From positions 3,162,001 through 3,226,000 of the forward strand of contig CM102283.1 in assembly GCA_046563655.1 (NCBI GenBank): a stretch of DNA of 64,000 nucleotides, given 5' to 3'. The stretch's first letter is position 1, and every line of letters begins with the position of its first letter. Below, one piece after another: positions 18,451-53,561 of the stretch. This stretch comes from Yuukianura sp. NJ FZ-2021 (lineage: Eukaryota). The notes beneath the pieces were generated by a model. That model saw only the letters and a program-made list of their open reading frames with translations, did no database searches and was not told where the DNA came from. The translations under genes were made by a program, and so were the position numbers.

Positions 18451-18824
18451 GTCACTTTAAGTTCCTGTAAATGAAAACACCAACCCGTACAACCAACTTG
18501 TAAATATTAGATACCAATAGCGTGAATATGGCTTAGTGAATAAGTAGTTACCGATTTGCCCCGATTCCATTTACATTTCATGCACTGCATATTCTGTACA
18601 TAATCTGTTCATATACTTAATCACTACTTTGTGTGTATCAGATCAATGCATAAAAAACGACAAGTTTATGTACAAAATATGCACGCTTTATGAATGAGTG
18701 GTATATAATATTGAAATAAACTGTGATCAAAATCAACGCCATTTAGACGAGTTTCAGATGATGTATTTTATTTATCAGTATTACGCTACAATATTTACAA
18801 AAGACTAATGGAGTAACAATTAAA

Positions 18825-20555
18825 TTAATTACAAAGTGGAATACAGAATACGCTCTGCTTGAATGGTAGGCAAATACATTTTTTTCTTAACAAATCTAGC
18901 TTGTAAGACATAACCGTTCGCTTTAAGGTTTTACAAAAGAAGATTCCAAGTAGTTTCGATTCACAAGGATAATGTTTAGCATTTTCGAGTACTCTGTAAC
19001 GCTTAACCAAAACAGTGCCTTTTGTAGTGTCAATGCTTTGTACAACACAAATATCGGTTTCATTTACAATGTAACAACATCCCACACCTACACTACTACA
19101 TTGAACATCAGATTTAGTGCCTCCTAAATCGAAACTGTTGCCTCTTTCTGTAATTCTATTAACAGTTTGCATTAAATGGTTGCTAGTACCATGAACTAAT
19201 TTTTTTAGTCTAGACATAAAACTCTCAAACTCGAAAGCACTAAAAGAGTCCAAGCTGCCATATTTCTTAACATCTTGTACCAAATGTAAAAGTGAGTGCA
19301 TATTATAAGTAATTAATTCACAGCCATATAACTCAGGAATCTGTTCAACAAATTTGCAAATTAATTGTGAGGCATATTTAAGCCAACTGGAATTCTTAGC
19401 TTGAGGAGATACTAAAATATACATAGCAGTATGAAATATCAGAAAATGTGAATACTTTTCTAGTGTCAAAATTCCTTTCAGTACTACCGGTCCTAAATAC
19501 AGCATAAACATTCTATACTCCACGGCTTTAAAATAAGCCAGGTAAGTAAGTGGACGAGGCTTCCTTACAAATTCCTTAGGAATAAATTTGCGGAGTCGCA
19601 CCATTCGACTGGAAATGCGTTCCAAGTCACCACTTGACAACTTGTAAGGACCCTTGCTCCAAACGATAAGCATTCTTTTCATAATACCTAAACAACATAG
19701 ATGCATATACTCCAGTGGTATCTCTGTAATTAGTCCTATGTTTAACTCAACAAGAGGCGAAAACCCAGTGTGGTGCTTCTTATAAATTTGATTTTTAAAT
19801 GAATTATTAGAATAAAGTGAAGTCACTTTAGCTGGGAAGCATACCCTATTGTTTTTCCAAGTGCCTCGGGCGTAACAACGTTCACAACTATAATAACCAG
19901 TATGCGGCTTTACACATTTTAAGAAAGACCGGGCGGGGGCATCGGCTATTATTGCCCTGAGAGTTATTGGATAAATCGAATTTTTGAATAGGATACCGTT
20001 TTGCTCTAAGTGTTTCATCTCCTCTACAAAATCTGCTAAAAACTCGTCAACATTTGTTGGCTTGTTATACGCGCTAAATAGTGAAATTACAAAAATTGGG
20101 TTTTTTCTAAATTCGGAAATTTTGCCTAATATTGGCCAAAATTGCAATTTGGAGCTTTTAGAAATGGGAAGTCCATCAATGTTCACAGTTAGTGTTAAGT
20201 TAGAAGACTTGGAAGGGACTTCACTTTCTAATATGCGCGTAATATTTTTTTCAATACCAAAATAAAACATTTCACCACCACTGGATTTTTTGGCGAGAAC
20301 TTTTCTAGGAGTCCTTAAAAAAGATCTGGAATCGCTAGGGAAGTTCTCATTTGGAAACCACGATGCTACTAGTTTTAGTAAATCACTAGTAGCAGCACCG
20401 GTTAAGTTATGTTTAAATACAAAATCTCGTAACTCACATTTTCTAGAAATAGTATTATTTACACTAATATTGGCATACTGTGGTGTAGTCGAATGATGAA
20501 TAGTGTCGTCAGCCAAAATCAGATTGTCTTCTCGAGGCGAAATCGCAGTATCCAT
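18825..20555 (-). CDS. CMC/EnSpm-type transposase (uninterrupted ORF; alternative upstream ATG at 20672)
   Basis: NIDGLPISKSS..FWPILG, ADAPAR..C...H.GYYSCERC, PLEYMHLCCLG, YNMHSLLHL and GSLDSFSAFEFES are motifs of animal EnSpm-like transposases. Confidence 0.88.
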   Translation of the reverse strand: MDTAISPREDNLILADDTIHHSTTPQYANISVNNTISRKCELRDFVFKHNLTGAATSDLLKLVASWFPNENFPSDSRSFLRTPRKVLAKKSSGGEMFYFGIEKNITRILESEVPSKSSNLTLTVNIDGLPISKSSKLQFWPILGKISEFRKNPIFVISLFSAYNKPTNVDEFLADFVEEMKHLEQNGILFKNSIYPITLRAIIADAPARSFLKCVKPHTGYYSCERCYARGTWKNNRVCFPAKVTSLYSNNSFKNQIYKKHHTGFSPLVELNIGLITEIPLEYMHLCCLGIMKRMLIVWSKGPYKLSSGDLERISSRMVRLRKFIPKEFVRKPRPLTYLAYFKAVEYRMFMLYLGPVVLKGILTLEKYSHFLIFHTAMYILVSPQAKNSSWLKYASQLICKFVEQIPELYGCELITYNMHSLLHLVQDVKKYGSLDSFSAFEFESFMSRLKKLVHGTSNHLMQTVNRITERGNSFDLGGTKSDVQCSSVGVGCCYIVNETDICVVQSIDTTKGTVLVKRYRVLENAKHYPCESKLLGIFFCKTLKRTVMSYKLDLLRKKCICLPFKQSVFCIPLCN

Positions 20556-20556
20556 G

Positions 20557-22049
20557 TTAAGCTGAATTTTCGGAAGAGGAAGACTTCTCTCTGGCCTCCT
20601 TTGAATTCTTTGCAGGTTTTGAACAACCTGCTGTTGAATTCGTCTTACTCGGCTTCGCCTCGGTGTCTCCATTGTCGTCTTTCTTAGAGTTTCGGAAATG
20701 ACGTCCAATAAATAAATTGAGTTTTGCGTCTGATGCGTCTTCGCCTTTGTATGTTTGCTGAACCGCAGCTGGAAATTTAAGATAAAAGTGTTAATTGAAC
20801 AATTTGTAGTAAAGAATCACAAAAAATGGAAATCGTTATACACAAAGTTAAGTTACCTCTCACAGCCAAAGCCAGAGTCAATCCACCGAAAGGAACTTTG
20901 CCAGAGTTATCCGTAATTCTCAGCTGTTTTCTTACATCCTCTGAGATTAGCAGACGTAGGGTGTTATATACCGCTTTCGACACTGGATATCCGCCGGCTT
21001 TGGACAACTCAGTGACCTTAGTATATTAACAAACACTTGGTAGAGAGTTGATTCTAGTTAAGTAATTAAAATAGTGTGATGTTGAGAATGCACTTACAAG
21101 GAACTGATATTGAGTTTGATTTTGAACTATTTGTTCTGCGATGTTCAACTCATCAATTGTTTTCAATGGCAAGGGAGGATACTCGTGACGTTGGGTGGTG
21201 ACAGTGTTTGATTGTGCAAGTGACAGACGAACAAATTTAGTCAAATCCACCATCTGTTGGTTTAAGCGCTCAAGACTCTCCAGCACTATCTGTTGGAACT
21301 CTGGAAAAAAGGAGTAAATCATTAGTTATAATAATAGATATAATTTCGTACATTAAATTGAAGAACGTCATTACCACGATGCTCATTTTGCATTTGCTCG
21401 AGGGAAACTGTCGACAGGACTGCGAATTCTCCAACGTTCTGTGTGACGCCAACTCCTGAAACACACATAGTCTCCAATAACTCAAATTGAATGAATGTAA
21501 TTAATGTTTGGGTTTGATCACCTGTATCTTGCACGGTTTGTTCCGAATCTGGATTGATTCCCAACACAAATTCCTCATGTAAGTAGGTAGTCGGTGGCGG
21601 AGGCAACGATTGGGATGCTGAAGACTGATTTTCACTCTCGCTTGTGTCCGCTAGATCTAACCTCCTGGATTTTCGTAAAATATTGGATTTCTTCACAGCC
21701 TTTTCGTGGGAATCTAAAAAAGAATACATAAATTTGGTTATGTGGAGGCACAATTGATTCAACTTTGATTATCTAACACATGCATCTTAAACCCTATACG
21801 CAATGAGCATTATCGAGTTATCCACTCACCAAATCCTTTTACGTATTCTATCTCATACTTGTCCCAGTTCTCGTCCGGTACAGATTCCGCGGATTTAGAG
21901 AGTAGTCCCACATTTTTTGTTTTTTTTGGTGGCCAGTGACACTTTAGGTTTCCTTCTTCTGGCGATATCCACTTCGACGGCACAACGGAGTATCGGTTTT
22001 CGTGTGGAAAGAATACTACTGAAAAGTTTTTGAATTGAACAGAAGTCAT
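20557..22049 (-). CDS. Transposon accessory protein (spliced; DUF4806-like C-terminus)
   Basis: FSVVFF..E..YSVVPSKWI..CHWPP N-terminus; PLPLKTIDEL, GGYPVSKAVYNTLRLLIS, and last exon ...LFIGRHFRNSKKD...ENSA*. Canonical GT-AG introns. Confidence 0.7.
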
Positions 22050-25843: not shown

Positions 25844-33999
<8,156 letters not shown>

Positions 34000-34083: not shown

Positions 34084-34896
34084 CTAAAAAAGGCTTCTGA
34101 AGACGTTTTCCTTAAAGTAGATTCCGTCTTCCCCCAGCAGATTTCCAGGTGGGGAGTATGCTGCTACCACCACGGTGCGCATGCGCCGTTGACGTATGCC
34201 GAATCCTACTTGCGTGGATCCCTTCCAGACCATGGCTGAGAATGGAGTGACTCCAGGATCTGTCCAGTTGTAGTTTTGTATGGTAGCGTACCACCGAGCC
34301 ACTGCGTGCTCCATGGCGTCAAGGACGTCAATTGACGTCTTTCCACGGTATTGGTACAAGTTTTTGACGTATCCCGGTTGCAACTGGTTCGTAAAAGTGT
34401 TTGATCGAATAAGGTGGTGGGCATATCCCAAAGCAGCAATAGATAACTAAACGAGGTCAAAGGTCAAAAATGTAAATTTTGAAATTTTAGTTTAAAATTT
34501 TACCGTTCGGTTGAGTTCTAGCGGTGGAACTCCGTGTTTCTCCCTCAGTTCATTGTGCAACTTCAAACCAAGAATGGAAACTAAGAAAAATTGGGCCATT
34601 TTAAGCCTTGTTGTCCAAAAAAACTTTCAAAATGTTTTTCAAAACGAAATTTCAAAATTGAGAACTGAATTTTTTGACGAAAAAAGAACTTACAGTTTCC
34701 TGTGACTTCCGTATCTCGTGGTTTCCCATTCTCGGTTAACTCATTGTTCAAAACTCCCTGTACGAAGTTTTGAAAAGTGAAAAGTAAAGGCTTGGATTTG
34801 AAATTTCAAAATTACAAAAATTTGATTTTTTTTTGCACTTACGTAACTGAACTTCAGAATTGTCACAAAATAAAAAATGCAAAACCAACGGCTCAT
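34084..34896 (-). CDS. Secreted stand-alone CAP/SCP (GAPR-1/GLIPR2-like) protein
   Basis: Signal-like MSRWFCIFYFVTILKFSY; LHNELREKHGVPPLEL; AVARWY; FSAMVWKGSTQVGFG; VVAAYSPPGN; ENV. Confidence 0.85.
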
Positions 34897-35860: not shown

Positions 35861-38705
35861 TTAGTACGATTCTGATATGTATAGATATGATGCCACCACA
35901 AGTGGAAGTAGGATAATGGATGCAACGATAGTCCATGGTATAAAGAAAGCCAAAATTGTGAAGAGCCAAAGTATTTTGAGAATACCAACTTCAACAGCAC
36001 CCGCACCAAGGTGAGCTAACAGGGAGCCAAAACTTATAACTGCAACAGACGGAATTTGTGGATTTGGTGGAAGTACCAGAGTCTGGTTCAACATGTCTTC
36101 TGGAGGAGACCGTTCTATAGACCAACGGAACAACATTTCAAATAAATTATGTAAATAAATAATTAATAAAATTATATTCATAATCAGCCCCCTGCAAATG
36201 GCGCCCATAGCAACCAACGCAATTTTTTTTTGTGACGTCACCAGCTGAAAAATACAGTAATCGTGAAATTGGAACCCGCAGGCATTTACTGTTCCGTTCA
36301 TTTAACAAATGTAAAAAAAGCCAAATTGCGACAAAGGTTATACTCCCATAAGAAAAAAATGTCTCAAAAAAAGATCCTCGTTTCCTCCCTCCGTCATTGA
36401 GAAAAGAGGGAACTTCTTTCCTGACACCTGGCCTTTCTGAAAAACCTCCGAAATTAGATGTTGCGCGGCAAGCACATGTTGCAACGATTAAATTGTTGGA
36501 CGCACAATTAAATCAACTCTAAAAGTAATTTGAAAATATGTATTACTATTTTAATGTAATTTATACAGATTTGTTGAAGTATTCATTATTATTGGAGTAA
36601 TTTGTCCAATAATTTAACGATGTTAACATGTGCTTGCCGCGCAAACTCTAATTTCAGAGAGTTTTTGGAAAGACCAGGTGTCAGGAAGGAAACTCCCTCT
36701 TTTCTCAATGACGGAAGGAGGGAGCGAGGATCTTTTTTTGAGACTCATTTTCTTATGGGAGTATAGCCTTTGTCGCAATTTCGCTTTTTTACATTTGTTA
36801 AATGAACGGAACAGTATGTAACCAAGATGTGTCTTACGGGTTTCTATAGGACACCACCAATAATTGGCATAATTCCGGTATTTTCAGCGGGTGACGTCAT
36901 TCTTTTTTTCCAAATGGCAACCAAACAAATTTTCCATTCGCACTACCTAGTAGTATTCTATTTACCTTGATTCATAACATAGTTTTTCCTAGGCTACGTT
37001 CGGGTTAAACCCAGGTTCAAGTAATGGTGAATATAATTGGCTGAAGAGCTTACCACTGCAGAAGAATAGCCGTGTTACGCGTCCGCAGTCATTTCGAACG
37101 TCTACTGCTAAGGAATTCGTGTAGTTGACTGTGGCGCATGTCCCATTTTCCCCGAGGGATGCCCAAAAGTTGCCTAAATACATATTTCCTACGTTAGTAC
37201 CAGTACTCGTTACAGCGAACTCCTTAAGTATGTTCAATTGCATAAGTTATACCATAACCGAGTGTGGTTGTGTTAAGTGTGAAACTGATATGACTCCTCT
37301 TAGGTATATGTATGACTGCATCTTATCACATACGTTGAGTTAGTTAAGTTTTTGCTTACCATTGTTTTGAAAAGTTGGTGCAATTTCGACTAATCTTTTC
37401 ATTACTTCCTTGACAGAGGTTAAGGAAACATTGCGTACATTGCAACACGCTACAGCTGACTCATACACGAGTTTTCTTGCCGACTGCCAAATTCCGTTCC
37501 CAATTTTTTGAAATAATTGTTGTTGACCACACTCCTCCACAACTAAAGGAATTTCACAACAGGTTATTAACGTCTACAAAATTTAGTTTGTTCAGCTCAA
37601 CTCTGCTACTAACAGAAATCCTAAGACGAATTCACCTCTGCTGTGGTTTGCCTTGCACAAGAAATAGATGGGAAGGGTACACATTGATGCTTGTTTGTAG
37701 AGACTTCCATTGCTTCCCGCTCCAACACTCAGGCAGGCTTCCCTTCGCAGTGTGTCACGACCATCATCCAGAGGAAACGTAGCAGACGACGCGTTGTTTA
37801 ACCACTGAAACTGGACTTGTGTGGAAATCTTTGCTCCGAGCCATAAGAACCAGTACCTAACTAGAACAATGTTCAAGCGTTGCAATTCTCTTTAATTTTA
37901 CGAAAGCAGGGAACTCACGTGAGTCCACAGGCTCAAGCAATTGACGGATCTGTTCGACTTCACTTGCGTCTTCGATTATAGGAGGTTCCATACCAAAGGA
38001 TGTAGCGCAACTTTTCATTGCATTGGGCCAATCCATCTACGGACGTGGAATTAGAATAGAATCAAACGGTTCACAAGAAAATGTACGTACCAGTATTCGG
38101 TATTTGCAAGGAACGGTAATCTAGAACGCTTACCTGAACTGTAGAATAAAACAGCTGCGAATTCCCCAATTGTCGCAACTCTTGGAAAGGATGTGTCCCT
38201 GTAATGAAGTATGAATTAACATTAGTGGATTAGTATTCTATGACTCAAGGTTATGTCATCCTCATCACCCCATTGAATTACGTGAGGTTATCAACTTTTA
38301 GCTACCGTTTATATAGCTACCATTAGCTATATTAATTACCTCACTGGGAACGTGGGTAATGTTAAAATGTACTTGATATAGGCACACTATTATAAAGTTA
38401 ATTGTATCTGTCAGTATGTTGGATAGATACTAAATTTTTAAAATTTGTACATCTTGTATGTACTACATTTAAGTGTTCGAATATTGAGAAGCACCTGTGC
38501 CCATGCAGTTGACAGGAAGTCCAGGCGGCGTGCATTCGCAAAGCCCCTTGCGCCGATGCGGTGGAGATTGATCGATCAGCCAATTGTCACGCCACATTGC
38601 ATTTGGTCCATCAAGTGATTCCGCCCAATTTGTAAAATCTCCCGTGTCTACGTCTAGCGTTATGAATACAGTAGCCTCTTCGGCCGCATTCTCCTGTAGG
38701 ACCAA
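35861..38705 (-). CDS. Putative C-type-lectin-like (tandem CTLD) membrane protein; exon structure and limits uncertain
   Basis: WPNAMKSC, LWLGAK..FQWLNN..C..C...YFLC and a second C..C..LFFC module, followed by a hydrophobic C-terminal exon. Exon joins were not fully resolved. Confidence 0.4.
36233..36899. mobile_element. Foldback-type non-autonomous element (long inverted repeat)
   Basis: 36289-36500 is the near reverse complement of 36604-36816; outer tgacgtcaccagctgaaaaata / tattttcagcgggtgacgtca. Confidence 0.8.
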
Positions 38706-40357: not shown

Positions 40358-41565
40358 ATGTTTGGGAGGCTGAGTGTGGCGGTTTTACTAGTCTGGGGAG
40401 TGGCGTTGTCGAAAAGAGTGCCAGTACAGTTTCCATTTGCTAGTACCAAGGTGAGTTTACTCTCATTCTAGAGACTCTCTGCAACCGTCGATTTGTATTA
40501 ACATTTGATGAGTTTCTACTTTCTAGGAAAAACCTGATGAAGGGCTCTACTACTTTCCTATACCAGACACTTGCCCAGGTCACTTAACAAAACAAAACCA
40601 TCCACCTTCTCGAATATGTAGATGCAAGATTACTATAGCAACCATTTGTACAAATGGCTTAAGAGGTTATGTCATAATTCCGATTTTCAAAAAAAAACAA
40701 GAAAAAACAACTTTGGTACGAATTTCATACGAATTTTGTTTTCTTACCAAAAATGTTGGTTTTTTTCTTACGCTTTGCTATAGGAATCTTTAGTTTTGAT
40801 TTCGAATTGCTAACGCAACGGAAGCGTGTAAGGGTAGCGCAAGACGTGTGATTCAAAAAATTTAAAATCAAGAAAACAGGAGTTTTGACATAACCTTATA
40901 AGAAGAAATAAACAAAATTTCGAGTTAAACAAGCTTGATGTAGATGGCTGTATACTATACTGTAAATATACTACAGTACTACTATATACTATAGTATATT
41001 TACAATTTAGTATACAGCCATCTCTAGTATATATATAGTAAATATACTATATATATACATAGTACATATACAATATATATCATTGTACTATATGGTGGTT
41101 ATATATATAGCATTATAGTATATTGTACATATACTATGTATATGTAGTAAAAGGTATATGTGTACAGACGAATGTGTCTACATTCCGGAGTGTGGCCCAG
41201 GCAGATTTCTGCCCACAATGGAGGAAATGGACAAAATCGAAAAAACGAGGGGGTATGGGAATTCTAGTCGACGGTTTATCGCCACTGGGGGAGGTGACTG
41301 TGAAGGACTCTACGACCTTGACCCCGTCATTTGTCCAATTACGTCCGTTGGGGAGTGTTACATCAAGTGCGGTGGATTACGCTGTGCTACCCCAGAACAC
41401 AATGGATTCACCACCCGCAACCCTCTCCACCCTGTCGTATTTGAAGAAATGGTCCAACTCCACCGCAAGGAAAACAATCCTACGTTGAACATGTTCAGAT
41501 TCCGCGATATTGCGCAAGCCAAATACCCACAGTATAAACCTCCTCAGCCTTACTACAAATCATAA
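40358..41565 (+). CDS. Hypothetical secreted Cys-containing protein (3 exons)
   Basis: Signal-like MFGRLSVAVLLVWGVALS; donor at 40451; exon starting at 40527; last exon ECVYIPECGPG...C..C..C..C..C...YYKS*. Confidence 0.55.
40625..40937. mobile_element. CAAGGTTG-family MITE
   Basis: Ends caagatta...caagcttg; direct repeat atgtagatg on both sides; body closely similar to the 44429 copy. Confidence 0.85.
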
Positions 41566-42667: not shown

Positions 42668-43044
42668 ACGAATCAAATATAAGCTAATTTCTTCGTTTTC
42701 GGCTTCAGAAGAAATGAGCGCTCGCTTTAGGGTCCCGGTGCAGCTCATATGACTCCGATCTGGGGTAAATGAGGCGTCACTTACAACGAAGCGGGAGTAT
42801 ACACTGAGCCTTTGGTAACCACTAGGAATTCCACATGGGAGTTCCACTTCTGCTCTATACGAAATGACTACGGAATGAATAGTAAAAAAAATGCAATTTT
42901 TGTAACTCAAGAACGCTAGAATATGTATTGTTGCTAACAACACTTGTTAATGGCGTTTGGAAACTCACCCTCGGCGTCTTCAGTAGTCACTTGTGAAGAT
43001 GAGTGGAAAAACAGAAATAATATCAATATTGTTAAAAATAACAT
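42668..43044 (-). CDS. Hypothetical secreted protein (first two exons; may continue near 41570-41717)
   Basis: Signal-like MLFLTILILFLFFHSSSQ; GTGAGT donor near 42968; exon ISYRAEVELPCGIPSG...; GTAAGT donor near 42669. Confidence 0.4.
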
Positions 43045-43926
43045 TTTGAAATTTTACTGGGAAAAAATTGTTTAACGTCCAATTTCGGTAAGCAGAGTAA
43101 ATGCTGAGTACATTGGAGTTTAGCCTTTTATTCATCTTAAGTCTAACGCGTCTTGGGAGTTTAAAAATACTACTTCAAAAATGGTGACGAACTAAAGCGG
43201 ACCACGACCGTAGTAAAAAAAAAATTTCAGTACTAATTTCGTTTCGTAAAACTTTGAGACACGTCGGTTCTTTTGTCCATTCTTTAAATTGTACAAAAAA
43301 CATAGTTTAATTTGGAATTAAAAATTCAATAAAAATTTTTATGTGTGAAACATAACAGTTGATGCTTTACTTTGTTAGTAAGTATCTACAAAGTCTTAAA
43401 TAACCTAACCTATCTTGAGGCAGGTTGAGGAATACTGCAATTATATATTTATGGCTGTTTTCTTTTGTTTCCAAAACCAGAAAGTGTTTTTACGTGGTCT
43501 TAACATTTTAAAAGCTCTGCTATCTTGAATGACATAAATTGAAACAGCGTTGTTGCAGTATAATTACTTAAAGTTAAAAATAATAGCCTTGCCTTGCTTT
43601 GTATTTTGAAATGGTCTTCCATTCTTTACTATTCTGATGAAACAATTGAATTTTTAATTTTAAATTTGAACTTACAAGTTGGAAGTTGTTAAATTTGTGA
43701 ATGGAATTGAATTTTTACAACAAAACGGTAACTTTATTTTAAAAGTTCCGATATTTCTTGTTTTTCCTCTTATTTTTTTTCAAGCAATTAAGCGAAAATT
43801 GTACAACAGGACCAAAATATATTTTATTTTAAGATTTGGAAATAAGTGAGCCCAAACTCCAAATCCAAAATAAACCTAACACAAGAGTTTAAAAAAGAAA
43901 GAAAAAAGTGTGCTGAAGGTTTTACC

Positions 43927-44150
43927 CAAAGTTGTTTAAATCCAAATTTTGTTTTATTTTTTTAACAGGTTATGCCATGACTCCTGTTTTTAGAAAATTG
44001 TTTGTAATTTCTTATGCGATTTGTTGGCCTCGCGCCATGCAAAATAAAAAAGGATTGGTCCAAAAGTTTTTTTTTAAGTTTGTTTTTTAAATCCGAGTTA
44101 TGGCATAACCTGTTACGGAATTTGTGCAAACCGCCACTATAGCAACCTTG
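43927..44150. mobile_element. CAAGGTTG-family MITE (reverse orientation) just past the stop of fusion gene A
   Basis: Ends caaagttg...caaccttg; TSD gttttacc/gttttaag; internal aacaggttatgccat/atggcataacctgtt. Confidence 0.8.
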
Positions 44151-44161
44151 GTTTTAAGCGG

Positions 44162-47100
44162 CTAACTTGGTGTTTTGGGGAAAACATTTTCATGAAAATG
44201 CTTTCCGTTTTCTCCAAGGATGTTTCCTGGTGGAAAGTAAGCGACTACCACAATCGTGCGACGTCCATTGCTGGCCACTCCTGTGCCCATATCTGTTGTG
44301 TCTTTCCAAACAACTTGTGAAAAGGTAGAGTAGTACGGATTGTCCCAGTTGTAGGAAGAAATGTCATCGTACCAAGCATTCACTGCTGCAACTACTGAAG
44401 TCTCGGCAGTAGAGCGATTCCCTGTAACCAAGATTCCTATAGCGACCATTTATACAAATGCCGTAAGAGGTTATGTCATAACTCCCATTTTTCAAAAAAA
44501 AAATTACAATAATCTCTCGAATTTTTTTAATTTCCCGCTTTGATTAATTGTTTTAATTTCGAATTGCTAACGCAACGGAACATCGTCGTAAGATGTGCGT
44601 TTCAAAAAATTTGAAATAAGAAAAAAAGGAGTTATGGTATAACCTTTTAAGAAAAATTGAACAAAATTTTGAGTTAAACTTGCCTGTAACGTAGTACACG
44701 TTTTTGTTTATCCCCTCTTCATGCTCATTTTCAAAAGTTCCCTCTCGAATCAACTTGTTAGCATACGCTTGAGCTCTTTGTTTCATCTAAAAAAAGTTTT
44801 TGGTTTTCAGAAAAAATGATAAAAATTTGAAGTTGAAAAACAAAGTTTTATGAATTTACACGAGCACTGAGCCGGAGCGGTGGAGAATCATGCATGGAGC
44901 GGTAGAAGTTGTGTCTTTCAAGTGACTTCAACTCATATTCTAAAAATAATGTTGAAATGAAATTTCAAAAATCAAAAAAGTAAAAATTTTTAAAAAATTT
45001 TGAAAAATTTTGGATTTCATGTTTTTTAAATTTACGTTGAGTGTGAGCTCGATTTGAAAGTGGAAGTGAAGTTGTGGCTGCCTTGGCTGGAACTGTTTGT
45101 CGACGTCGATGTTGACTAGTTTTTACAACTGTAACTTCAACGGTAGTCGAGGGGTCAATGACCTCTGGGGGCGATTTTGTTGTTGAAGATGTTGCTGTTG
45201 ATGTTATTGATGTTGATGAATTTGTTGTTGACCTTATTGTTGTTTCTGAATTTGCTATTAATGTAGTTGCTGTTGTTGTTGACTTGGTTGGCGTACTCAT
45301 TGTGACCTCCGTTGTACCTTCAATGCTTTCAGGCGAAACGTCCGTCACGGCAGTCGTTTCTTCAAACGTGGCAGGAGTTGAATTTTTCAAAATTTCGAAA
45401 ATCGTTGTTATTTCTGGAGCTGCTGGAGTTGTTGACAGAGTTTTTTCAAAATTTGAAACCAAAATTGATTTGGAATTTTTTGGCGTTTCGATAGTAGGAA
45501 TAGGAGTTACTTCAATTTTTTCTGCTGTATGTATTGGAGTCGTAGATGTGTGGGTAGGAAGTGGCTGAAAACGTAAAATTTGAACTTTTTCAACAATGAA
45601 AAATGAAGGAATGAATTTTTTTTTTTAATTTTCACAAAATTTTGGTTTTACTGAATCTTGTTCATCGCCTTCTGGAAACAACTCTTCTGCTGTATCTCGG
45701 ATCCACTTGGCATAGGAGTTGACTTTAGTAAAGACGCTGTAGTTGTCACAAGATTCAAATCCTCCGCTCAAGTCTTTCTTACCGTGACTAACTATACCCT
45801 AGTGTTCAAAATTTGAAATTTTTGAAATTTTGAAATTTTGAACAAAATGGATTTGGAAAAATTCATGTGGTTTGCTACCTGAATGTAGTACCGACTGACG
45901 CCATTTGTATTTGATTTGAACATGAAACCTCCGCCGTTGTCACCATTACACGCGCCTTGAACTGAACAAGAAATTTCAAAATTTCAAAAAAAAAAAAATG
46001 TTTCGTTAAGATTATAAAATTTTGAATTACAGTTTTCAGTGCCGGCACAAAATTCGTACGGAGTGAGTTGGCGTTGGCGCCATTCAAAACACAAATTTGA
46101 ATTTACCACCGGCAGAGTCACGTTCCTCAACGTGAACGAAACGGCGTGTGGATCACCTTCACTAAACTGTCCAAAACCTACCACCTTCGAAATTTTGAAA
46201 ACTTAAAAAAATGCTTTTCAAAAAAGTTAAAAATTTTTAATTTTGGCGCTCAATTTACCTCTCCTTGTCCCATTTCCTCTGTAATGTCAACGCTTCTACT
46301 GAAACAAGCTGGAATTACGTTAGGGTTTAGCTCAACCGTTTTGATAAGCGAAATAAGTGCGATATCTGCCTGAAAATCTCCTGGAATTCCTTCAAACGAT
46401 TTGTGCAAAACGATTTTCCTAACCTACATACATAAAATTTCAATTTTGGAAATGCTAAAAATTTTAAAATTTTGAAAAAATTTTAACCTCATGGATTTGG
46501 ACATCTTGAAGACCTAAGTTTTCCTCCAGAGAACTAAATTCCCCGCCAAGAACGATTCGAATGTTTTCAAAATCTTCGCGCCCTTGGTGCACTTCATTTG
46601 CCAAGCAGTGTGCAGCTATAAATCCATTTTTAAAAACTTTCAAGTTTCCAAGAAACTTTGAATTTTTGAGGAATTTTACCTGTGAGGATCAGAAATCCTT
46701 TGTTGAAGGGCTTAATCAAGGTCCCACCACAAATATATTTGAAATCCGCAGTTAAATTTTCGCGGGAAAAAATCGATGCGTGCCAAGGCCAGAGTTCTCT
46801 CCGCGTTTCAGTTCCGCCAACGACAAATCCAACTGCATTGGCTAATTGTGGTAAACCGCAGTTTATGGCACAGGAAAACGCCAGGAACTCGGCTCGACCA
46901 ATCCACTGACTCCGCGGACTACAAATCAGCTGACCATCTTCAACGTCGTCGTTGAGTGCGACGTAGTAGTTGTTAACGCAGTTGTACGTTGCGATCGTTC
47001 CCGTCGGGAGTTTTGCACCACCGTGACAGTCAATGACTTCACCAGTGTTGGAGTTCTTGCAACGCACTCTCACGCCCTGCGCAGAATTCAAAATTTAAAC

Positions 47101-47569
47101 GAATTGCGCATGTATCTCATTTCCCAATTTAACTCAATCAGGCCGATTCCAAAATCACCTTGGTGAGTAATGTTAACTGCTAGGCTGTAACCTTATCTAA
47201 ACGGCGGACATCTAATCATCAGAGATGTCAAAAATATGTGCTATGCTAAAAACCCCCGAAATATGGACAAAAAATATGTTTTTTTTGTTAAAACCGGCCA
47301 AATATTTCCTTACTTAATAATAAGGGCATGGACAAATAATAAATATTTAGAAACAAAAACCCCACAAATATTTTTTCTGTTAACATTAGAGGAATGGAGA
47401 CTGAATATGTTTGGCATCTCTGCTAATCATGCACCGGAGACGCGAAAAAATTTACATACCGAGTAATTTGGTAGGTTTAGTTACTTACTTCTCGGTAGAT
47501 CAACGAATCACAGTCAGCGGAAATTCCAAGGATAAAAGACGACAGCAAAAGTATAACAAATTTTAACAT
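44162..47569 (-). CDS. Fusion gene A: signal peptide - Sushi/CCP-like - non-catalytic serine protease homolog - Thr-rich linker - CAP domain
   Basis: VVGG..WPWHASI..ICGGTLI..TAAHC..ADIALI..ACNGDNGGG (catalytic Ser to Asn). In-phase splices lead into a Thr-rich exon and then HNFYRSMHDSPPL..AVNAWY..FSQVVWK..YFPPGN. Confidence 0.85.
44429..44682. mobile_element. CAAGGTTG-family MITE forming a GC-AG intron (44422-44683) in the CAP domain of gene A
   Basis: Perfect 8-bp TSD cctgtaac at 44421-28 and 44683-90; family-diagnostic internal inverted repeat. Confidence 0.88.
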
Positions 47570-48282
47570 TTTGGTCAAAAAATGTTGAAATTGGCAAATT
47601 GCCAATTTTTGTTTGTTTTAAATTTTCAAAATTTTGAGTTTAAAGATTTTGTCCTCGTCTTACAACAAGGAAAGTGAAGTGAGTAATTTAATTAGGGAAG
47701 TGATAGACTGTGCGAGAACGACATTGAGGTGAGAAGATGATACACGCCAATTTGCAAAAATTTATTGCCATTTTTTTTTTGAAAAAGTTGTCCTTGTCTG
47801 GCCCATCTCACGTCAGGCGACAAATTTCGAAATAATTAGCCAATTTAGTCACCAAAACCAGTTTTGTTCAAATCCGCATTGTGTAATTTATTCACGCTCA
47901 TCAATGTAGGAAAAGACGAAAAACAACTTTTTTCTAAAACACTTTTTCGGAATTTTTTAAATTACAAAATGGTCAAATAGTTAAAAAAAAATTTCAATAC
48001 TTGATCTTAACCTTAACATTAAACTAAAGTTGAAAAAATAAGCGACTTGTTAAACGCCAAAGTTTTTCGGCAATTACGTAAAACGCATTTTTTGACGATT
48101 TTAAGTAAATTTGCATGTTCAGAAAATAAATTAGTAGATAGTACTTGAAGACTTTTGCGTCATATGACTCATATGACGCATTTTGTGGCAAATGGCAAAT
48201 TGCGAATGGCAATTGCCAAATGGCAAATTAGAAATGACAAATTCCACACGACGTGAAATAAATCGGCGTCGCGTGACATATT

Positions 48283-51024
48283 TCACGCCTCATGTGCATT
48301 TCCTCCAGTAATCGGTGGGAAAACGTTTTCAGCAAAAGATTTTTGTCGTTCAGAGGAATTAACTGGAGGTCTATCGTACTTGACCACCGCAAGTTGTTTT
48401 TTCCCACGCTGAGCCACGCCCACTCCAATCGCTGTTGTGCGTTGCCATACAATTTGTGTAAAGGGATTTGCTCGTGGTGATGCAAAATTGTAGTTTCCGG
48501 CAGTTTTGTACCAATCGCGAACGGCGTCTTGAATGAGACGTGTGGCTGGTACAACGTTACCAGACAAGCCGTACCAGTTCGTAAATCCAGAAAATTTAAA
48601 ACGGTTCGTAGCCAACGCTTGTTCAGCTTCGGCTTGAGCGAGTTGGCTCAACTAAAAACAAATAAACACAAAATGTTCAACATTTTTTCTTCAAAGGAAC
48701 CAAAATTTGAGACCTTTTTTTCGGTAATACTGGTTTACCTGATGAGAAATTTTGACTGGCGGAGCTCCGTGGCGCCGACGGAATAAATTGTGTTGCAGAA
48801 CAGCTGTGATTTCGTAATCTGAAAGAGTTGTATGGTTAACTTTTGTTGACAAAATTACAAGTTGACAAAATTGCATGTTGATCAAATTGCAAGATGATGA
48901 AGACTACCTTTCATAGAGTTGTCAAGGGCGGAATTGACGTCAGGTTGGTCTGGCTCTACGAGAGCAATGACGTCAGGATCCTGCGTTCGAATTAAACTGT
49001 GAATTATGTCTTGAATTGCAATTGGCAATGACGCAAAGTCGTCTGGGTTCAATTCGTGGTCAGCTGATACCGTTTCTGGCACGGAAGTTTGCAATCTCTG
49101 CGAAGATTGCGGTAAAGTTGGGCGCGGAGTTTGAATCTTGGAAATGGCGGGAATCCGAACTTGAATTTGTTCAACTGGCGCCTGAGGGGTCAAAGGTCGT
49201 TCCGCCCGAGGAGTTTCTTGAAATGAATTCGGGTTTGGCTAAAAACAGATCAAACCGGTTTTGAACTTATTCTTAAACAAATTGGCAAATTAATGCACAC
49301 TTTTTAAGTTTACCGCGAAAAAAATTCGTAGGAAAAATTTTCGCCAGCAAAACTTTCGCGAAAGTCAACTTTTTTTTTCCTCACCTGAACTGACTGTTGA
49401 TGTCGCTGTCTCTCTTCATGCAGTTCCAGGGCAGTTTGTTTGATCCAATCTGCATAGTCACTCACGCCAATAAACCAACTGTGCTTTCTACATGTACGAA
49501 GTCCCTCTCCCAAAACGCCCTAAAATTTTCAAAATTTTAAGATTTTTTGAAATTTTGAATTTCCAGTTTCTAGAAAGTTTTAGTATACCAGAATGAAATG
49601 GCGCTCAGAGTTGGCTGAAAAGCGTGGAAACAAAAGTCCGCTACCAAAGTCTCCGTCGCAAATATTTTTTCCTACATGACAAAAAAAAAGTATGCTTTCA
49701 AAATGTGTTTCTTTCCAAGTTTTTCAAAATACATGTGATTTCAAAAAATTGTGTCTTTCGAAATTTTGAAAACTTACCTTCGCTACTTCCAGCACAGAAG
49801 GAATGTTTAGAAATTATTCGCGCCCTTTTGTCAATGCAGTTTCCAAGCGTGACTACTCCTGCGCTGATATTTCGCAGGGCGTCGTTTGTACTTTTTTGAC
49901 CAAACCCAACTAACTATTTCAAAATTCAAAATTTTTGCATTTAAAGTTTCAAAATTTTGAAAAATGTAAAATTTGGGAACTTACTTGACCAAATGTGGAT
50001 TCTTGGAGTTGGTGTTTGGCAAAATCGACGCTCAGACTGAGACATGCTGGTAAAACCATTTTGCTTAAAACTGTTTCACGGGAAAGCTGAATCAGCGCCA
50101 GCAGACCATCATCTTCCGTTACAATTCTTCTGACCTAAAAATATTTCAAATTTTTCAAAAATTTGAGTTTTAGATTTTCGAAAAATGATAATTTTGTTTG
50201 ATTACTGGAGAAGTTTGTCCATTGCTTTTGTGTCTGGAGTTTTTCTCGTGTGAAAAAAGTCCGAGACGAATTTCGATGTCTTCCGGATTTCTGTTTCGGA
50301 CGCATTCGGCTCCCGTGAGAACCAAAAGTTCGTCGGCGTTAAAGGGATTGATCAAAGTCCCGCCACAAGCAAATTTGAAATTTTCTGGGGCAGAGTGAGA
50401 CTCCCGGGCAAAAATTCCTACATGCCAAGGCCAAAATGTATGGGCAGAATCCGGGTAAGATTTACCACAATCTGTGTCAAAAGTTCAAAATTTTGAAAGG
50501 TCTGCAGAAGAGATAAATTTCTGAAATTTTGAATTTTCAGAATGTGGTTTCTCACCCATGTGACACGAAAAAGAGCGAAATCTCAAATCCGGCGTCCATT
50601 TTCCATTTTTTGAACAAACCATTTGCCCTCCAGTGTCTCCGTCATTTGTGACACTTTTGGAACAAAAAAAAAAACATTTTTTTTTCAAAATACTTCTTTT
50701 TTGAATTTTTTTTTGAAACGTACAAGAAGTCTTCGCATTTGTATTTCGCAATTGTTCCTGGCGGCATTCGCATTTTTTGACAATCCAAGGACTCTTTTGT
50801 ACTTGGATGTTGACACTCAATGTCAACTCCCTAAAATTCAAAATTTCAAACAAAAATCATACTAAAAATCTCTTTTTTTTAAAGTTTTCAAAATTTTTCA
50901 AAAAGTTTTAGGTTCTTACTGTTCTGAAAGACAGTGACTCACAACTCTGTCCTTGTGCAGACACTTTTCCTAAACCCATCGCAGCAACAAATTGCACAAA
51001 AACTAAAACTTTAACTTTTTCCAT
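48283..51024 (-). CDS. Fusion gene B: signal peptide - Sushi/CCP-like - non-catalytic serine protease homolog - Pro/Gln linker - CAP domain
   Basis: FWPWHVGIF..FACGGTLI..LTGAEC (His lost)..ICDGDFGSG (Ser lost). In-phase splices lead to HNLFRRRHGAPPV..AVRDWY..FTQIVWQ..ENVFPP. Shares intron positions with gene A. Confidence 0.82.
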
Positions 51025-52048
51025 ATTTTTCTCTTTTCAAATTGTAATAAGCTTTCAAAAACTTTTGAAATTTTGCAAAATTTTTGTCTTCCTGAGAAAA
51101 CCTCTTCCTGGGGGCTCCACTTGGACAATGACCAGTGCAAATTAGATGTCCGGATCTAAAAAGGCCTGATGGAATTGGCGTCACATTTTGAAAAAAAAGA
51201 AGCCATACGTGCCGCATTGTCCGTGATGAAATGTGAATCTTGCTTGACTGGATTTTGACTTCTTTAGGACATTGGCAACTTCTGCGTCAAAAAAAAAGTA
51301 GAGGATGAGGTGACAATATCCTGAAAAAATTAGTAAAATCTAAGTGGAATTATTTTTTTTCATGAAAAATAAGTTTCAGTTTTGCGAGAATATAAGTATA
51401 CAACTTGTCCACCAAAAATTTACATCTTCTAATAATCCCTTTGGTTCAAAAACAAGATCCGGTTCAAAGATTTTCAGAATTTTTACGTTGGACGTCATCA
51501 ATAATTGTTGACATTTTGACATTTTTTTAAAAGAATTTTTCAAGCTCAACTCGTTTTTCTTTTAGCATTTCAATGTCTAGTTAAAAGTTTGAAAAAAAAA
51601 CTGCAGAGAATTTTGGAGGGTCGTACGATTTTTTTTTTCCATTTTTTTTCTACTCAAGTAATTTTTTTTAATACTAATGAGGTCATGAACTGCAAAATGT
51701 CGTTTCCGGAATTCCAAATTTTTATTTTGTGTAAATTTTTGTAAACTTTTACATCAAACAACATTTTTGATGACTAAAAGTGTGACTGTCGCGACCTTCA
51801 CTTTGACCTCGACCATTCCAAAAATGTACCTAAACTGTCTCCTCTGTGATACAGTCAAAGCCTACGTAAAAAAAAGTTCAATGTTACTGAAATTTCCAAA
51901 TTCCACAAACAATGATGTAATGAAAATGATGTAACATAGCGTAAATGTTGTTCGACAGTTTATTTTTTATGTAATGCGGATAATGTAAAATACAAATTTT
52001 TTAAGAAGTAATTTTTAAGAAGTAATTAACAAACACAAGAAGTAATTT

Positions 52049-53561
52049 TTATGACCGATTGGAAACTTCAAAATACGAAACGGTTTGCTTCAAACTCTCA
52101 GCGTCGGTGTCAACTCGTTTGATTGTGGTTGTTCGTGCGTTGTAGATTCCGCAAGTGCCCAAAGTTTGGTAAAGTTGGGAGGCAGTTCCCGCGGGAACTT
52201 CGAATTCCACTTGAGTAACGGTTTCTACCGACCAAACTTCTGTGTTGGTGACAGTCCAGTTGTATCCCGTGATTTCACTGGATCCATAGTTGTAGCCGAA
52301 GTTGAAGGAGAGTGGAGTAGGGGCAAGGTCAAGGGTGAATCCAAGGTCATTGTAAACTGCAGTCACATCATAGTGTGTCTCTGACTCTGTTCGTGAGTGG
52401 GAAACTCCGATTTTCCTTGCGTAGGTGCAAGTAGTTGGCGTAGTTGCTTGTGTGTTGTCACATTCAATCAGAAGATCCCACTCGTCAGAGGGTCCACAGA
52501 TACTGGCTGGGTCAGGAACATCACAGCATTTGAAGTTGACGTTGTTAAAAGCAGTTTCATCTCCTGAAAAATTTAAAAAAAAGTCAGAATTTTGGAAATT
52601 TTAGAAATCAGTCGACACTATATGTGACTAAATCGGGAAATACTAAGGCGATGTAATGGCGATGGAACAACGCTGTTTTTCTAGGAGAGACTGAAATATG
52701 CCATCTAACTAAACATACATGCGAATGTGAAGAATCTGAATTTTTATGTTAGTTTCGCATGTAGACGAAACCAAATTTCTGGTTTTTGTCTATACTAATG
52801 AAATGTTGTATTTCTGTCTCTGAATATTGCTTTTGTATTTTTTTTTGTCTATACTAATGAAATGTCGTATTTCTGTCCATGAATATTGTTTTTATGTATT
52901 TTTGTCTGTACTAATGAAATGTTGTATTTCTGTTCATTGCTTACCACCACCGGTTCCGTCCATTTCGATTTGCGTTTGGATTCCGCACATTGCTTGTTTG
53001 TTGAAGCATTCCTGTGGCATCGTCCAATCACCAAACCACAAACCATCTCCTTCAATTGCTTCTTCCTTCTTCTGGTTGCAGATCAAACGCATGTTGTTTG
53101 CTGCCGTATCGTCAGACGATCCACCCTGGTACCCTTCCGATCTCAACTGAAATCCAGTACCCGCACCTTGGCAGAACATCTCTCTTCCCCAATCTCCACG
53201 AGGGTTGGTACCGGAAGTGATGGATACATTGTTGTATCGGTACCCAATCGGAGCACAGAATACCTTGATGCTGTTCAAAGCGGTATCGTCATAAAACCAA
53301 GATCCGCCCCAGGCCTCCGTCTGCAACTGGAATCCGCTGATGTAGGTATCTTCCGGACAGTACTCAAAGTCAAACAACTAAAAACAAATATATAAAATGC
53401 ATAAAAACATTAAATATAAAAAATTATATATTATTATATTGTTTTTAAGTATGTCTCACCGTGCCCCAGTTCGTAACTTGCGGAGAGTAGATGATGACGT
53501 CAGCTTCTTGACTCTGAACGCCCAAAGCCAAACAAACCAAAAGACACAAAATGGACTTCAT
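52049..53561 (-). CDS. Secreted VMO-I (vitelline membrane outer layer protein 1, beta-prism) domain protein with a ~150-aa C-terminal beta-rich domain
   Basis: Signal peptide; three VMO-I repeats (WG..CP..GFQL..E..DDTALN; GDWG..C..GFQLR.E..DDTAANN; FGDW..C..CGIQTQIE..DETAFNNV.F.CC); then a Ser/Thr-rich extension. Confidence 0.88.
52788..52933. repeat. Three copies of a ~58-bp intronic repeat (gtctatactaatgaaatgttgtatttctgt)
   Basis: Seen directly. Confidence 0.75.

What the first reader, a model, noticed from the sequence alone, without database searches (positions are those of the whole stretch)
44162..51024. Tandem pair of Sushi - pseudo-protease - CAP fusion genes, an unusual secreted architecture with two degenerate active sites
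Seen in sequence: two paralogs with shared intron phases join a Sushi-like plus trypsin-fold module (reminiscent of arthropod modular serine proteases) to a GAPR-1-like CAP domain through a low-complexity linker. The protease is inactive (GDNGG in gene A; GAEC and GDFGS in gene B). The CAP domains lack the usual GENL and GHFTQ residues (NKNV/STFSQ and FTNW/NPFTQ). I do not recognise this domain combination from characterised proteins. Inference: a lineage-specific immune, cuticular or reproductive scaffold that couples protease-cascade binding to lipid/sterol binding.
Basis: partly seen in the sequence, partly recalled or inferred. Interest (0 to 1): 0.75.

Follow-up and report, generated by a model that had tools for sequence, protein, structure and literature searches.

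The report
Tandem dead-protease–CAP fusion genes
Two neighbouring animal genes each join a Sushi domain, a catalytically dead trypsin-like domain and a degenerate CAP domain into one secreted protein, a domain combination I could not find elsewhere but built wholly from familiar parts.

Summary
On the minus strand lie two complete 11-exon genes: A (47569-44162, 708 aa) and B (51024-48283, 619 aa). They are 30% identical end to end (E 4e-84). All 14 cysteines are conserved, and 8 of 10 intron positions are shared.

Each encodes a signal peptide, a Sushi/CCP module, a trypsin-fold domain, a low-complexity linker and a cysteine-free CAP domain. A keeps His and Asp but has Asn for the catalytic Ser. 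B has lost all three triad residues and the activation segment. All four CAP His/Glu/Glu/His positions are replaced in both.

The linker exons are open, phase-compatible and conserved in arrangement in both paralogs, so a single transcription unit is likely. No transcript was available.

A stand-alone secreted paralog of the CAP module (gene C, 34896-34084) shares the CAP intron phases. This suggests fusion by exon joining.

None of 142 database relatives of the Sushi-protease exon carries a CAP part. Close relatives exist only as exon-sized fragments, so the spread of the architecture is unknown.

Function is inferred: a secreted, non-enzymatic two-headed binding protein.

In passing: gene A's extra intron is a 254-bp MITE with an 8-bp target-site duplication.

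The parts
44162..47569 (-). Gene A, complete CDS (708 aa, 11 exons): 47569-47489, 47076-46680, 46615-46488, 46423-46259, 46184-46031, 45961-45879, 45798-45652, 45564-45036, 44939-44860, 44786-44684, 44421-44162
   Evidence: open frame, splice sites; corrected exon 10/11 junction.
47489..47569 (-). A exon 1: hydrophobic N-terminus, read as a signal peptide
   Evidence: Read from the sequence. No signal-peptide predictor was run.
46867..47076 (-). A Sushi/CCP-like module (first ~70 residues of exon 2)
   Evidence: Near-invariant C, C, C, W, C columns. AF2 pLDDT 81.5. Foldseek top hits almost all complement-control/Sushi-module proteins at E >= 0.22. Pfam Sushi not detected directly.
45652..46827 (-). 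A trypsin-fold pseudo-protease domain. FVVGG at 46827-46813 with no basic P1 residue. His codon 46610-46608, Asp codon 46366-46364, Asn replacing Ser195 at 45938-45936.
   Evidence: collinear Pfam pieces; phmmer to trypsin proteins; alignment; coordinates.
45036..45564 (-). A linker exon, 176 aa: 26% Thr, 13% Ser, 9% Pro (mucin-like)
   Evidence: composition; the 219-codon open frame has P ~5e-6. Acceptor in phase 0 and donor in phase 1.
44162..44939 (-). A CAP domain (3 exons), cysteine-free. Tetrad positions replaced: NKNV 44708-44697, WYDD 44374-44363, STFSQ 44329-44315.
   Evidence: Pfam CAP 34.1 bits on the last exon. Alignment. Cysteine list.
44422..44683 (-). A-specific intron 10 (GC-AG, 262 nt). 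It equals a 254-bp MITE-like element (44429-44682) plus 8 nt of the duplicated target GTTACAGG (copies at 44683-44690 and 44421-44428).
   Evidence: B and C have no intron at this position.
48283..51024 (-). Gene B, complete CDS (619 aa, 11 exons): 51024-50920, 50830-50724, 50653-50556, 50471-50206, 50134-49985, 49913-49778, 49671-49589, 49519-49385, 49238-48908, 48818-48739, 48651-48283
50556..50830 (-). B Sushi/CCP-like module, split over exons 2 and 3
   Evidence: Aligns to the A module and to fragment P0044 (phmmer E 1.5e-23). P0044 reaches Pfam Sushi at 25.4 bits.
49385..50471 (-). B trypsin-fold pseudo-protease. Activation segment deleted. Glu for His57 (50307-50305), Leu for Asp102 (50104-50102), Phe for Ser195 (49648-49646).
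   Evidence: Pfam Trypsin 23.1 bits on exon 4..
48908..49238 (-). B linker exon, 110 aa, Pro/Gln-rich
48283..48818 (-). B CAP domain (2 exons). FTNW 48585-48574, WYKT 48513-48502, NPFTQ 48468-48454.
   Evidence: Pfam CAP 39.3 bits. PDB sequence hits Pry1, SmVAL4 and GAPR-1 at about 2e-5..
34084..34896 (-). Gene C: stand-alone secreted paralog of the CAP module (185 aa, 4 exons: 34896-34843, 34757-34694, 34580-34504, 34446-34084). It has the same degenerate tetrad and the same two CAP intron phases.
   Evidence: Pfam CAP 29.9 bits; 38% identity to the A CAP, E 4e-26.
43934..44153 (+). Sister copy of the MITE, inverted, starting 9 bp after gene A's stop codon

Best explanation
A and B are intact tandem paralogs in a compact, short-intron animal genome. 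The organism was not identified.

Each gene encodes one secreted polypeptide with this layout: signal peptide, a short Cys-containing lead-in, a Sushi/CCP module, a chymotrypsin-fold domain that cannot hydrolyse peptide bonds, a flexible low-complexity stalk (Thr/Ser-rich and probably O-glycosylated in A; Pro/Gln-rich in B), and a cysteine-free minimal CAP domain that has lost the His/Glu/Glu/His metal-binding tetrad.

Shown:
- The gene models.
- The domain identities.
- The loss of the catalytic and tetrad residues.
- The conservation of all disulfide cysteines.
- The paralogy.

Inferred history: a Sushi-protease gene of the LDLa-Sushi-protease (modular serine protease) lineage was joined, through a phase-1 exon border, to a secreted CAP gene of the kind still present 10 kb away (gene C). 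The fused gene then duplicated. The 30% identity and the presence of A-like and B-like fragments in other genomes suggest the duplication is old.

Inferred mechanism: a non-enzymatic extracellular adaptor with two binding heads held apart by a stalk. The dead protease head would bind a protein ligand through its substrate-cleft or exosite surface, as haptoglobin and arthropod serine-protease homologs do. The CAP head would bind a second partner, either a lipid or sterol (more plausible for A) or a protein. This could tether or present one ligand to the other on a surface such as sperm, cuticle or a microbe.

The confidence of 0.6 is a blend: about 0.85 for the anatomy and the single-gene reading, about 0.3 for the adaptor mechanism.
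For: Gene models: complete ORFs and splice sites. Linker frames are open (P ~5e-6 for A, ~1.4e-3 for B) and phase-compatible.

Purifying selection:
- A and B are 30% identical over their full length, E 4e-84.
- 14 of 14 cysteines are conserved.
- 8 of 10 intron positions are shared.
- Exon-sized relatives occur in other genomes: P0001 at 58% identity with the same intron position, the B-like P0044, and P0051 with the same His-to-Glu change.

Domains: Pfam CAP is above cut-off in both genes and the Trypsin pieces are collinear. Spliced A matches trypsin proteins down to E 3.8e-55. For Sushi support.

Dead sites.

Ancestry: the best full-length relatives carry LDLa plus Sushi directly before an intact protease.

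Stand-alone CAP paralog with a signal peptide and the same CAP intron phases.

Functional analogy:
- In Drosophila the sex-peptide network uses inactive serine proteases, CAP-domain proteins and lectins interdependently (10.1101/2025.10.27.684572, passages read).
- GAPR-1-type CAP domains occur in extracellular multidomain matrix proteins (PMC7853314, passages read).
- Haptoglobin and arthropod SPH roles are from my own knowledge.
Against: - No transcript, EST or annotated ortholog was available, so the fusion rests on sequence logic alone.
- Reading through the donor after the last protease exon reaches a stop within 11 codons (A) or 27 codons (B). A short Sushi-pseudoprotease isoform without CAP is therefore possible.
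- Gene A's CAP exon carries a MITE. It must be spliced from a GC donor for the CAP domain to be made. If it is not spliced, the frame stops 44 codons after the junction, 42 codons into the element.
- No binding partner, expression site or localisation is known.
- The AlphaFold model of the CAP exon was unusable (pLDDT 41.5).
- Pfam does not call Sushi on A or B themselves.
- The Foldseek hits to complement-control/Sushi-module proteins are all at E >= 0.22.
Confidence: 0.6

Rival explanations
1. Each unit is really two genes, a Sushi-pseudoprotease gene followed by a linker-CAP gene, and the join is an artefact of in-silico splicing.
For: No transcript evidence. Intron retention after the protease part gives an early stop. 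GAPR-1 itself (from knowledge) lacks a signal peptide, so a CAP gene without one is conceivable.
Against: - The first CAP exon starts in phase 1 directly after an acceptor and has no in-frame ATG at its start.
- The linker exons have no start context or signal peptide, yet stay open for 219 and 118 codons.
- The same arrangement and phases survive in both paralogs at 30% identity.
- The stand-alone paralog C has its own signal-peptide exon, which A and B lack at that place.
Confidence: 0.1
2. The genes, or at least gene A's CAP half, are decaying pseudogenes. The dead active sites, the lost activation segment and a transposon in a coding exon would mark loss of function.
For: Triad and tetrad losses. 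A MITE sits inside A's CAP-coding exon and depends on a non-canonical GC donor.
Against: - 22 exons carry no frameshift or stop.
- 19 of 20 introns are GT-AG and the GC donor is GCAAGT.
- 14 of 14 cysteines are conserved.
- The exon downstream of the MITE is intact and keeps the family's invariant residues.
- Removing the element with one target-site copy restores the frame exactly.
- Dead-site variants recur in fragments from other genomes.
Confidence: 0.1
3. The protein is a regulator of a protease cascade rather than a general adaptor. The dead protease domain would compete with, or act as cofactor for, an active paralogous modular protease. The CAP domain would act as a protease-binding or inhibitory module, as described for CAP-family peptidase inhibitors PI15/PI16 (from knowledge).
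For: The closest full-length relatives are active LDLa-Sushi-proteases. A keeps His, Asp, the oxyanion-hole Gly and all disulfides, so its cleft is likely preserved.
Against: B has lost the activation segment and all three triad residues, so a common cleft-based mechanism is less likely. No cognate active protease was identified. The active CUB-trypsin gene in the window is unrelated at tblastn E < 0.01.
Confidence: 0.2

Closest known systems
Arthropod-type modular serine proteases (LDLa repeats - Sushi - S1 protease)
   Same: A Sushi module sits directly N-terminal to an S1 domain. The Cys-containing lead-in and the whole Sushi-protease unit align (A residues ~20-377 against P0068, P0015, P0027 and P0063, E 1e-46 to 1e-55). 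Those relatives carry Pfam Ldl_recept_a and Trypsin domains, except P0015, for which only Trypsin was found.
   Different: A and B have no LDLa repeats, a dead triad, no basic activation site, and a C-terminal linker plus CAP domain. None of the 142 relatives has that CAP part.
Serine protease homologs: haptoglobin (CCP + dead protease) and arthropod SPHs (from knowledge)
   Same: A secreted chymotrypsin-fold domain with a lost nucleophile, used as a binding module. Haptoglobin likewise pairs it with a CCP/Sushi module.
   Different: None of these has a CAP domain or a mucin-like stalk. Orthology was neither tested nor implied. Typical arthropod SPHs have Gly at Ser195 and clip domains; here the residues are Asn and Phe, with Sushi.
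GAPR-1/GLIPR2-type minimal CAP domains (PDB 1smb) and yeast Pry1
   Same: Pfam CAP is above cut-off. PDB sequence hits to Pry1, SmVAL4 and GAPR-1 are at about 2e-5. The domain has no cysteines. The best long database hit is a beetle triple-CAP protein, P0143.
   Different: All four His/Glu/Glu/His positions are replaced. There is a 4-residue deletion before the FTQ motif and a 4-residue insertion near the C-terminus, both shared by A, B, C and P0144. The domain is secreted and fused rather than free and cytosolic.
Drosophila sex-peptide network seminal proteins (separate inactive proteases, CAP proteins, lectins)
   Same: Dead S1 proteases and CAP-domain proteins act interdependently in one extracellular pathway (10.1101/2025.10.27.684572, passages).
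   Different: There they are separate polypeptides in a fly-specific network. No homology or reproductive expression was shown here.

Membership tests
S1A chymotrypsin-fold (Pfam Trypsin PF00089) | Significant sequence match to the family | tested here: met
   Per-exon Pfam pieces are collinear. A scores 18.7, 17.0, 14.1 and 11.9 bits at profile positions 1-34, 71-115, 125-169 and 193-220. B exon 4 scores 23.1 bits against a cut-off of 20.6. Spliced A and B match Pfam-verified trypsin proteins by local phmmer, down to E 3.8e-55.
S1A active serine protease | Catalytic triad His57/Asp102/Ser195 | tested here: not met
   A has His, Asp, Asn. B has Glu, Leu, Phe (alignment with 8 relatives; coordinates).
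S1A active serine protease | Zymogen activation site (basic P1 followed by an IVGG-type new N-terminus) | tested here: not met
   A has VG-FVVGG with no Arg or Lys. In B the segment is deleted.
S1A chymotrypsin-fold | Conserved disulfide cysteines | tested here: met
   14 of 14 cysteines sit at homologous positions in A and B and line up with relatives.
Sushi/CCP (Pfam PF00084) | Pfam match on the sequence itself | tested here: not met
   No Sushi hit at E <= 1 for A exon 2, for the 75-aa A module alone, or for B exons 2 and 3.
Sushi/CCP (Pfam PF00084) | Four-Cys plus Trp consensus, and homology to Pfam-positive Sushi modules | tested here: met
   C17, C33, C52, W58 and C69 are near-invariant in 14 rows. 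Of 5 short relatives scanned, P0044 (25.4 bits), P0124 (27.3) and P0073 (20.7) reach the 20.7 cut-off, P0004 (20.3) is just below, and P0001 shows none.
Sushi/CCP (Pfam PF00084) | CCP beta-sandwich fold | tested here: inconclusive
   The AF2 model has pLDDT 81.5 and is all-beta. The Foldseek PDB top hits are almost all complement-control/Sushi-module proteins (factor H, beta2-GPI, CD46, C1r, MASP), with one pilus adhesin among the listed rows. The best E is 0.22 and 0 hits have E <= 0.001.
CAP superfamily (Pfam PF00188) | Pfam match above the gathering score | tested here: met
   A last exon 34.1 bits, B last exon 39.3 bits, C 29.9 bits; cut-off 21.1.
CAP superfamily | Conserved His/Glu/Glu/His tetrad of the CAP cavity | tested here: not met
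   0 of 4 positions are kept in A, B and C, judged against the three canonical domains of P0143. The short fragment P0144 covers three of the four positions and keeps none. The B alignment to Pry1 shows Pro at the GHFTQ His.
CAP superfamily | Alpha-beta-alpha sandwich fold | tested here: inconclusive
   The AF2 model of the B CAP exon (4-row alignment, domain lacking its first helix) reached only pLDDT 41.5 and was not used.
Sterol-binding CAP proteins (Pry1-like) | Aromatic caveolin-binding-motif loop (pattern recalled, not from a call) | tested here: inconclusive
   A has YNWDNPYY at the position of Pry1's YDFSNPGF. B (YNFASPRA) and C (YNWTDPGV) lack the third aromatic residue. No binding was tested.
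Arthropod modular serine protease (MSP) | N-terminal LDLa repeats and an active protease | tested here: not met
   No Ldl_recept_a hit in any A or B exon. The triad is dead.

The most novel reading that the evidence does not exclude
The fusion is a 'Rosetta stone'. It would show that dead S1 proteases and CAP proteins form one physical working unit. These two classes turn up together as separate proteins in seminal fluids and venoms, for reasons not understood. Here the unit would be hard-wired into a single stalked polypeptide that docks a lipid- or sterol-bearing surface (sperm, cuticle or microbe) to a protein ligand. Its CAP subfamily (A, B, C, P0144) would be a new tetrad-less, secreted clade used as a portable C-terminal module.
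Probability: 0.15. Interest if true: 0.6.

Novelty: new variant of a known kind. Interest (0 to 1): 0.4.

Why it matters
All three domains are textbook families, so this is not a new kind of system. Its value is as a natural fusion.

If transcripts confirm it, the fusion gives a concrete and testable hypothesis: serine-protease homologs and CAP proteins cooperate physically. That would bear on reproductive and venom protein networks, where both classes co-occur.

It also defines a tetrad-less secreted CAP clade, for which metal-dependent mechanisms can be excluded.

The MITE-born GC-AG intron in gene A is a clean single-locus example of intron gain by transposon insertion. The ancestral state is preserved in two paralogs in the same window.

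Tried and rejected
- **Word-index protein searches for longer, fused relatives.** A exon 2 gave nothing. B's CAP exon gave only the beetle triple-CAP protein P0143, which has no protease. Gene C's exon in 'near' mode gave only a 99-aa fragment, P0144, from a 976-bp contig.
- **Exhaustive HMMER search with A exon 2.** It gave 142 hits. A local phmmer of spliced A and B against all 142 found no alignment to the CAP part. Close relatives are exon-sized ORF fragments only, so the architecture in sister species stays unknown.
- **ESM Atlas with A exon 2.** No usable hit.
- **Rfam on the whole window.** 0 matches. This gave no help with the organism, which remains unidentified.
- **AlphaFold of the B CAP exon.** pLDDT 41.5, discarded, and no fold search was run on it.
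- **Spliced proteins.** They could not be submitted to Pfam, PDB, structure or complex tools because they are joined sequences. All such tests were done per exon or locally.
- **Literature.** Five searches aimed at the architecture found no paper describing Sushi-trypsin-CAP. I read passages of PMC7694928, which were not relevant. I saw no supplements.
- **C-type lectin idea.** I suspected that ORFs at 36992-38036 upstream of gene C were C-type lectins. Pfam at E <= 1 gave no support, so I dropped it.

Full report
**What is there**

The window is eukaryotic DNA of about 37% G+C with short introns (introns mostly 57-146 bp, with two longer ones of 262 and 412 bp in gene A). Both units of the finding lie on the minus strand. 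From the sequence I built exon models and checked them by script.

- Gene A runs from ATG 47569 to TAG 44162. It has 11 exons and 2127 nt of CDS (708 aa).
- Gene B runs from ATG 51024 to TGA 48283. It has 11 exons and 1860 nt of CDS (619 aa).
- Nineteen introns are GT-AG. One, A intron 10, is GC-AG with donor GCAAGT (junction corrected).
- The finding's end coordinates coincide with A's stop codon and B's start codon.

**Paralogy and constraint**

The spliced proteins align over their whole length at 30% identity, E 4e-84. All 14 cysteines of each protein lie at homologous positions.

Six introns fall in identical alignment columns with identical phase. Two more, the borders of the linker exon, match in phase and domain position. 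That makes 8 shared of 10 in each gene. A has two private introns (before AAHC, and intron 10). B has two private introns, inside and after the Sushi module.

Twenty-two exons without a frameshift at this divergence argue for long-standing purifying selection.

**Domains**

*Per-exon Pfam.* CAP is above cut-off in the last exons: A 34.1 bits and B 39.3 bits against 21.1. The Trypsin pieces map collinearly onto the profile but are mostly sub-threshold because each exon is short. B exon 4 reaches 23.1 bits against 20.6.

*Exhaustive search.* HMMER with A exon 2 returned 142 relatives. A local phmmer of the spliced proteins against them matched the Sushi-plus-protease unit of A (residues about 20-377) to long proteins at E down to 3.8e-55. 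Pfam shows these to be LDLa/Sushi/Trypsin modular proteases.

*Sushi.* Pfam does not call it on A or B directly. The indirect support is:
- Short relatives reach the cut-off: P0044 25.4 bits, P0124 27.3, P0073 20.7.
- The C-C-C-W-C columns are near-invariant.
- An AlphaFold model of the 75-residue A module has pLDDT 81.5.
- Its Foldseek top hits in the PDB are almost all complement-control/Sushi-module proteins, including the CCP that precedes the protease in C1r, C1s and the MASPs, with one pilus adhesin among the listed rows. All are at weak E-values (best 0.22, none <= 0.001).

*Other parts.* The N-termini are hydrophobic and look like signal peptides (sequence reading; no predictor was run). 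The linker exon of A is 26% Thr and 13% Ser. That of B is Pro/Gln-rich.

**Dead sites**

In an alignment with eight relatives that carry TAAHC/DIAL/GDSGG:
- A has His, Asp and Asn at the triad positions, and FVVGG without a basic P1 residue.
- B has Glu, Leu and Phe, and lacks the activation segment altogether.

Against the three canonical CAP domains of P0143, all four His/Glu/Glu/His positions are replaced in A, B and gene C. The short fragment P0144 covers three of the four positions and keeps none. These four sequences also share a 4-residue deletion and a 4-residue insertion, so they form a distinct tetrad-less subgroup.

The CAP parts contain no cysteine. They hit Pry1, SmVAL4 and GAPR-1 in the PDB at about 2e-5. 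'GAPR-1-like' is therefore reasonable but not formally assigned.

**One gene or two?**

No transcript data were available. The sequence favours one gene per unit:
- The linker exons are entered by an acceptor in phase 0 and left in phase 1 into the first CAP exon.
- They remain open for 219 codons (A) and 118 codons (B). At the window's stop frequency of 0.054 this has P ~5e-6 and ~1.4e-3.
- Neither the linker exons nor the first CAP exon offers a start codon with a signal peptide.
- The arrangement is preserved in both paralogs.
- The stand-alone paralog C does have its own signal-peptide exon.

Against this, reading through the donor after the protease part reaches a stop quickly. A shorter isoform is therefore possible.

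**Origin**

Gene C (34896-34084, 185 aa) is a secreted CAP-only protein. Its CAP domain is 38% identical to that of A. Its first CAP exon is flanked by the same phase-1 and phase-0 introns as in A and B.

The simplest history has three steps:
1. An LDLa-Sushi-protease-type gene lost its LDLa part and its catalytic function.
2. It acquired the CAP exons of a C-like gene across a phase-1 border.
3. The fused gene duplicated.

This history is inferred.

**Distribution**

None of the 142 relatives aligns to the CAP part. The two word-index searches for longer proteins found no fused form.

The closest relatives are exon-sized ORFs from unannotated sequence:
- P0001, 58% identical, reads into an intron at the same place.
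- P0044 is B-like.
- P0051 has the same His-to-Glu change.

Five literature searches aimed at the architecture found no description of it.

**Mechanism (inferred)**

With no nucleophile and no tetrad, both heads can only bind. I read the protein as a secreted adaptor. A dead-protease head binds a protein, as in haptoglobin and arthropod serine-protease homologs (from knowledge). A CAP head sits on a flexible, probably glycosylated stalk.

A keeps the aromatic loop pattern that in Pry1 is linked to sterol binding (recalled). B and C do not.

A useful analogy is the Drosophila sex-peptide network. There, inactive serine proteases, CAP proteins and lectins depend on one another to load a peptide onto sperm (10.1101/2025.10.27.684572, passages). 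Extracellular fusions of GAPR-1-type domains exist too, for example a coral matrix protein with TSP1 repeats (PMC7853314, passages). Neither analogy tests function here.

**Side finding**

A's private intron 10 (44683-44422, 262 nt) is a 254-bp MITE-like element (44682-44429). It has terminal inverted repeats and is flanked by a perfect 8-bp direct repeat, GTTACAGG.

The predicted GC donor uses the last G of the first repeat plus the element's first bases. The acceptor AG lies in the second repeat. Splicing therefore removes the element plus one repeat copy and restores the frame exactly.

B and C have no intron at this position. An inverted sister copy lies 9 bp after A's stop codon, and partial copies lie near 8638 and 40657.

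This matches the 'introner' mode of intron gain (10.1101/2022.06.06.494994 and PMC12130899; search listing and abstracts only). It is also the main risk to A's CAP domain if the element is not spliced.

**Verdict**

The parts are ordinary. The combination is, as far as I could check, undescribed. Function is unknown beyond 'secreted, non-catalytic, two binding modules'. I rate it a new variant of a known kind, of moderate interest.

Noticed in passing
window 44422-44683 (element 44429-44682; repeats 44683-44690 and 44421-44428); sister copy 43934-44153; partial copies near 8638-8661 and 40657-40680: Gene A's private GC-AG intron is a 254-bp MITE-like element with terminal inverted repeats and a perfect 8-bp target-site duplication (GTTACAGG). 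Predicted splicing removes the element plus one duplicate and restores the reading frame exactly. Paralogs B and C lack the intron. It is a candidate transposon-born intron.
   Followed up: partly
window 34084-34896, minus strand: Gene C is a 185-aa stand-alone secreted CAP protein of the same tetrad-less subgroup, with the same two CAP intron phases as A and B. It is 38% identical to A's CAP domain. Its only database relative is a 99-aa fragment at 67% identity.
   Followed up: yes
window ~1937-4273, minus strand: A different protease gene. It has a CUB domain (Pfam 25 bits), a Pro-rich stretch, and an apparently active trypsin domain (HIVGG, AAHC, GDSGGP). It is not similar to A or B at tblastn E < 0.01.
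   Followed up: partly
window 52049-53377, minus strand (just upstream of gene B): An exon with a strong VOMI (vitelline membrane outer layer protein I) match (114.8 bits) lies next to a 183-aa exon with no Pfam match. The gene structure was not resolved.
   Followed up: no
window 18828-20816, minus strand: An uninterrupted 663-aa ORF that looks transposase-like. Its only Pfam match is a weak DUF1258 hit (E 0.03). It lies between a two-exon rhodopsin-type GPCR gene (16462-18456) and other genes.
   Followed up: no
window 43000-52000, introns of genes A and B (e.g. 45808-45842): Most short introns are built from variants of an AAATTTTG / TTTTGAAAATTT motif. One forms an 8-bp tandem array. Acceptors are mostly TAG rather than CAG (14 of 23 introns in genes A, B and C).
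   Followed up: no
window 29312-32823, plus strand: A P-type cation ATPase gene of the Na/K or H/K type, by Pfam pieces. An ORF overlapping 30378-31139 carries a short tandem peptide repeat, probably intronic low-complexity DNA.
   Followed up: no
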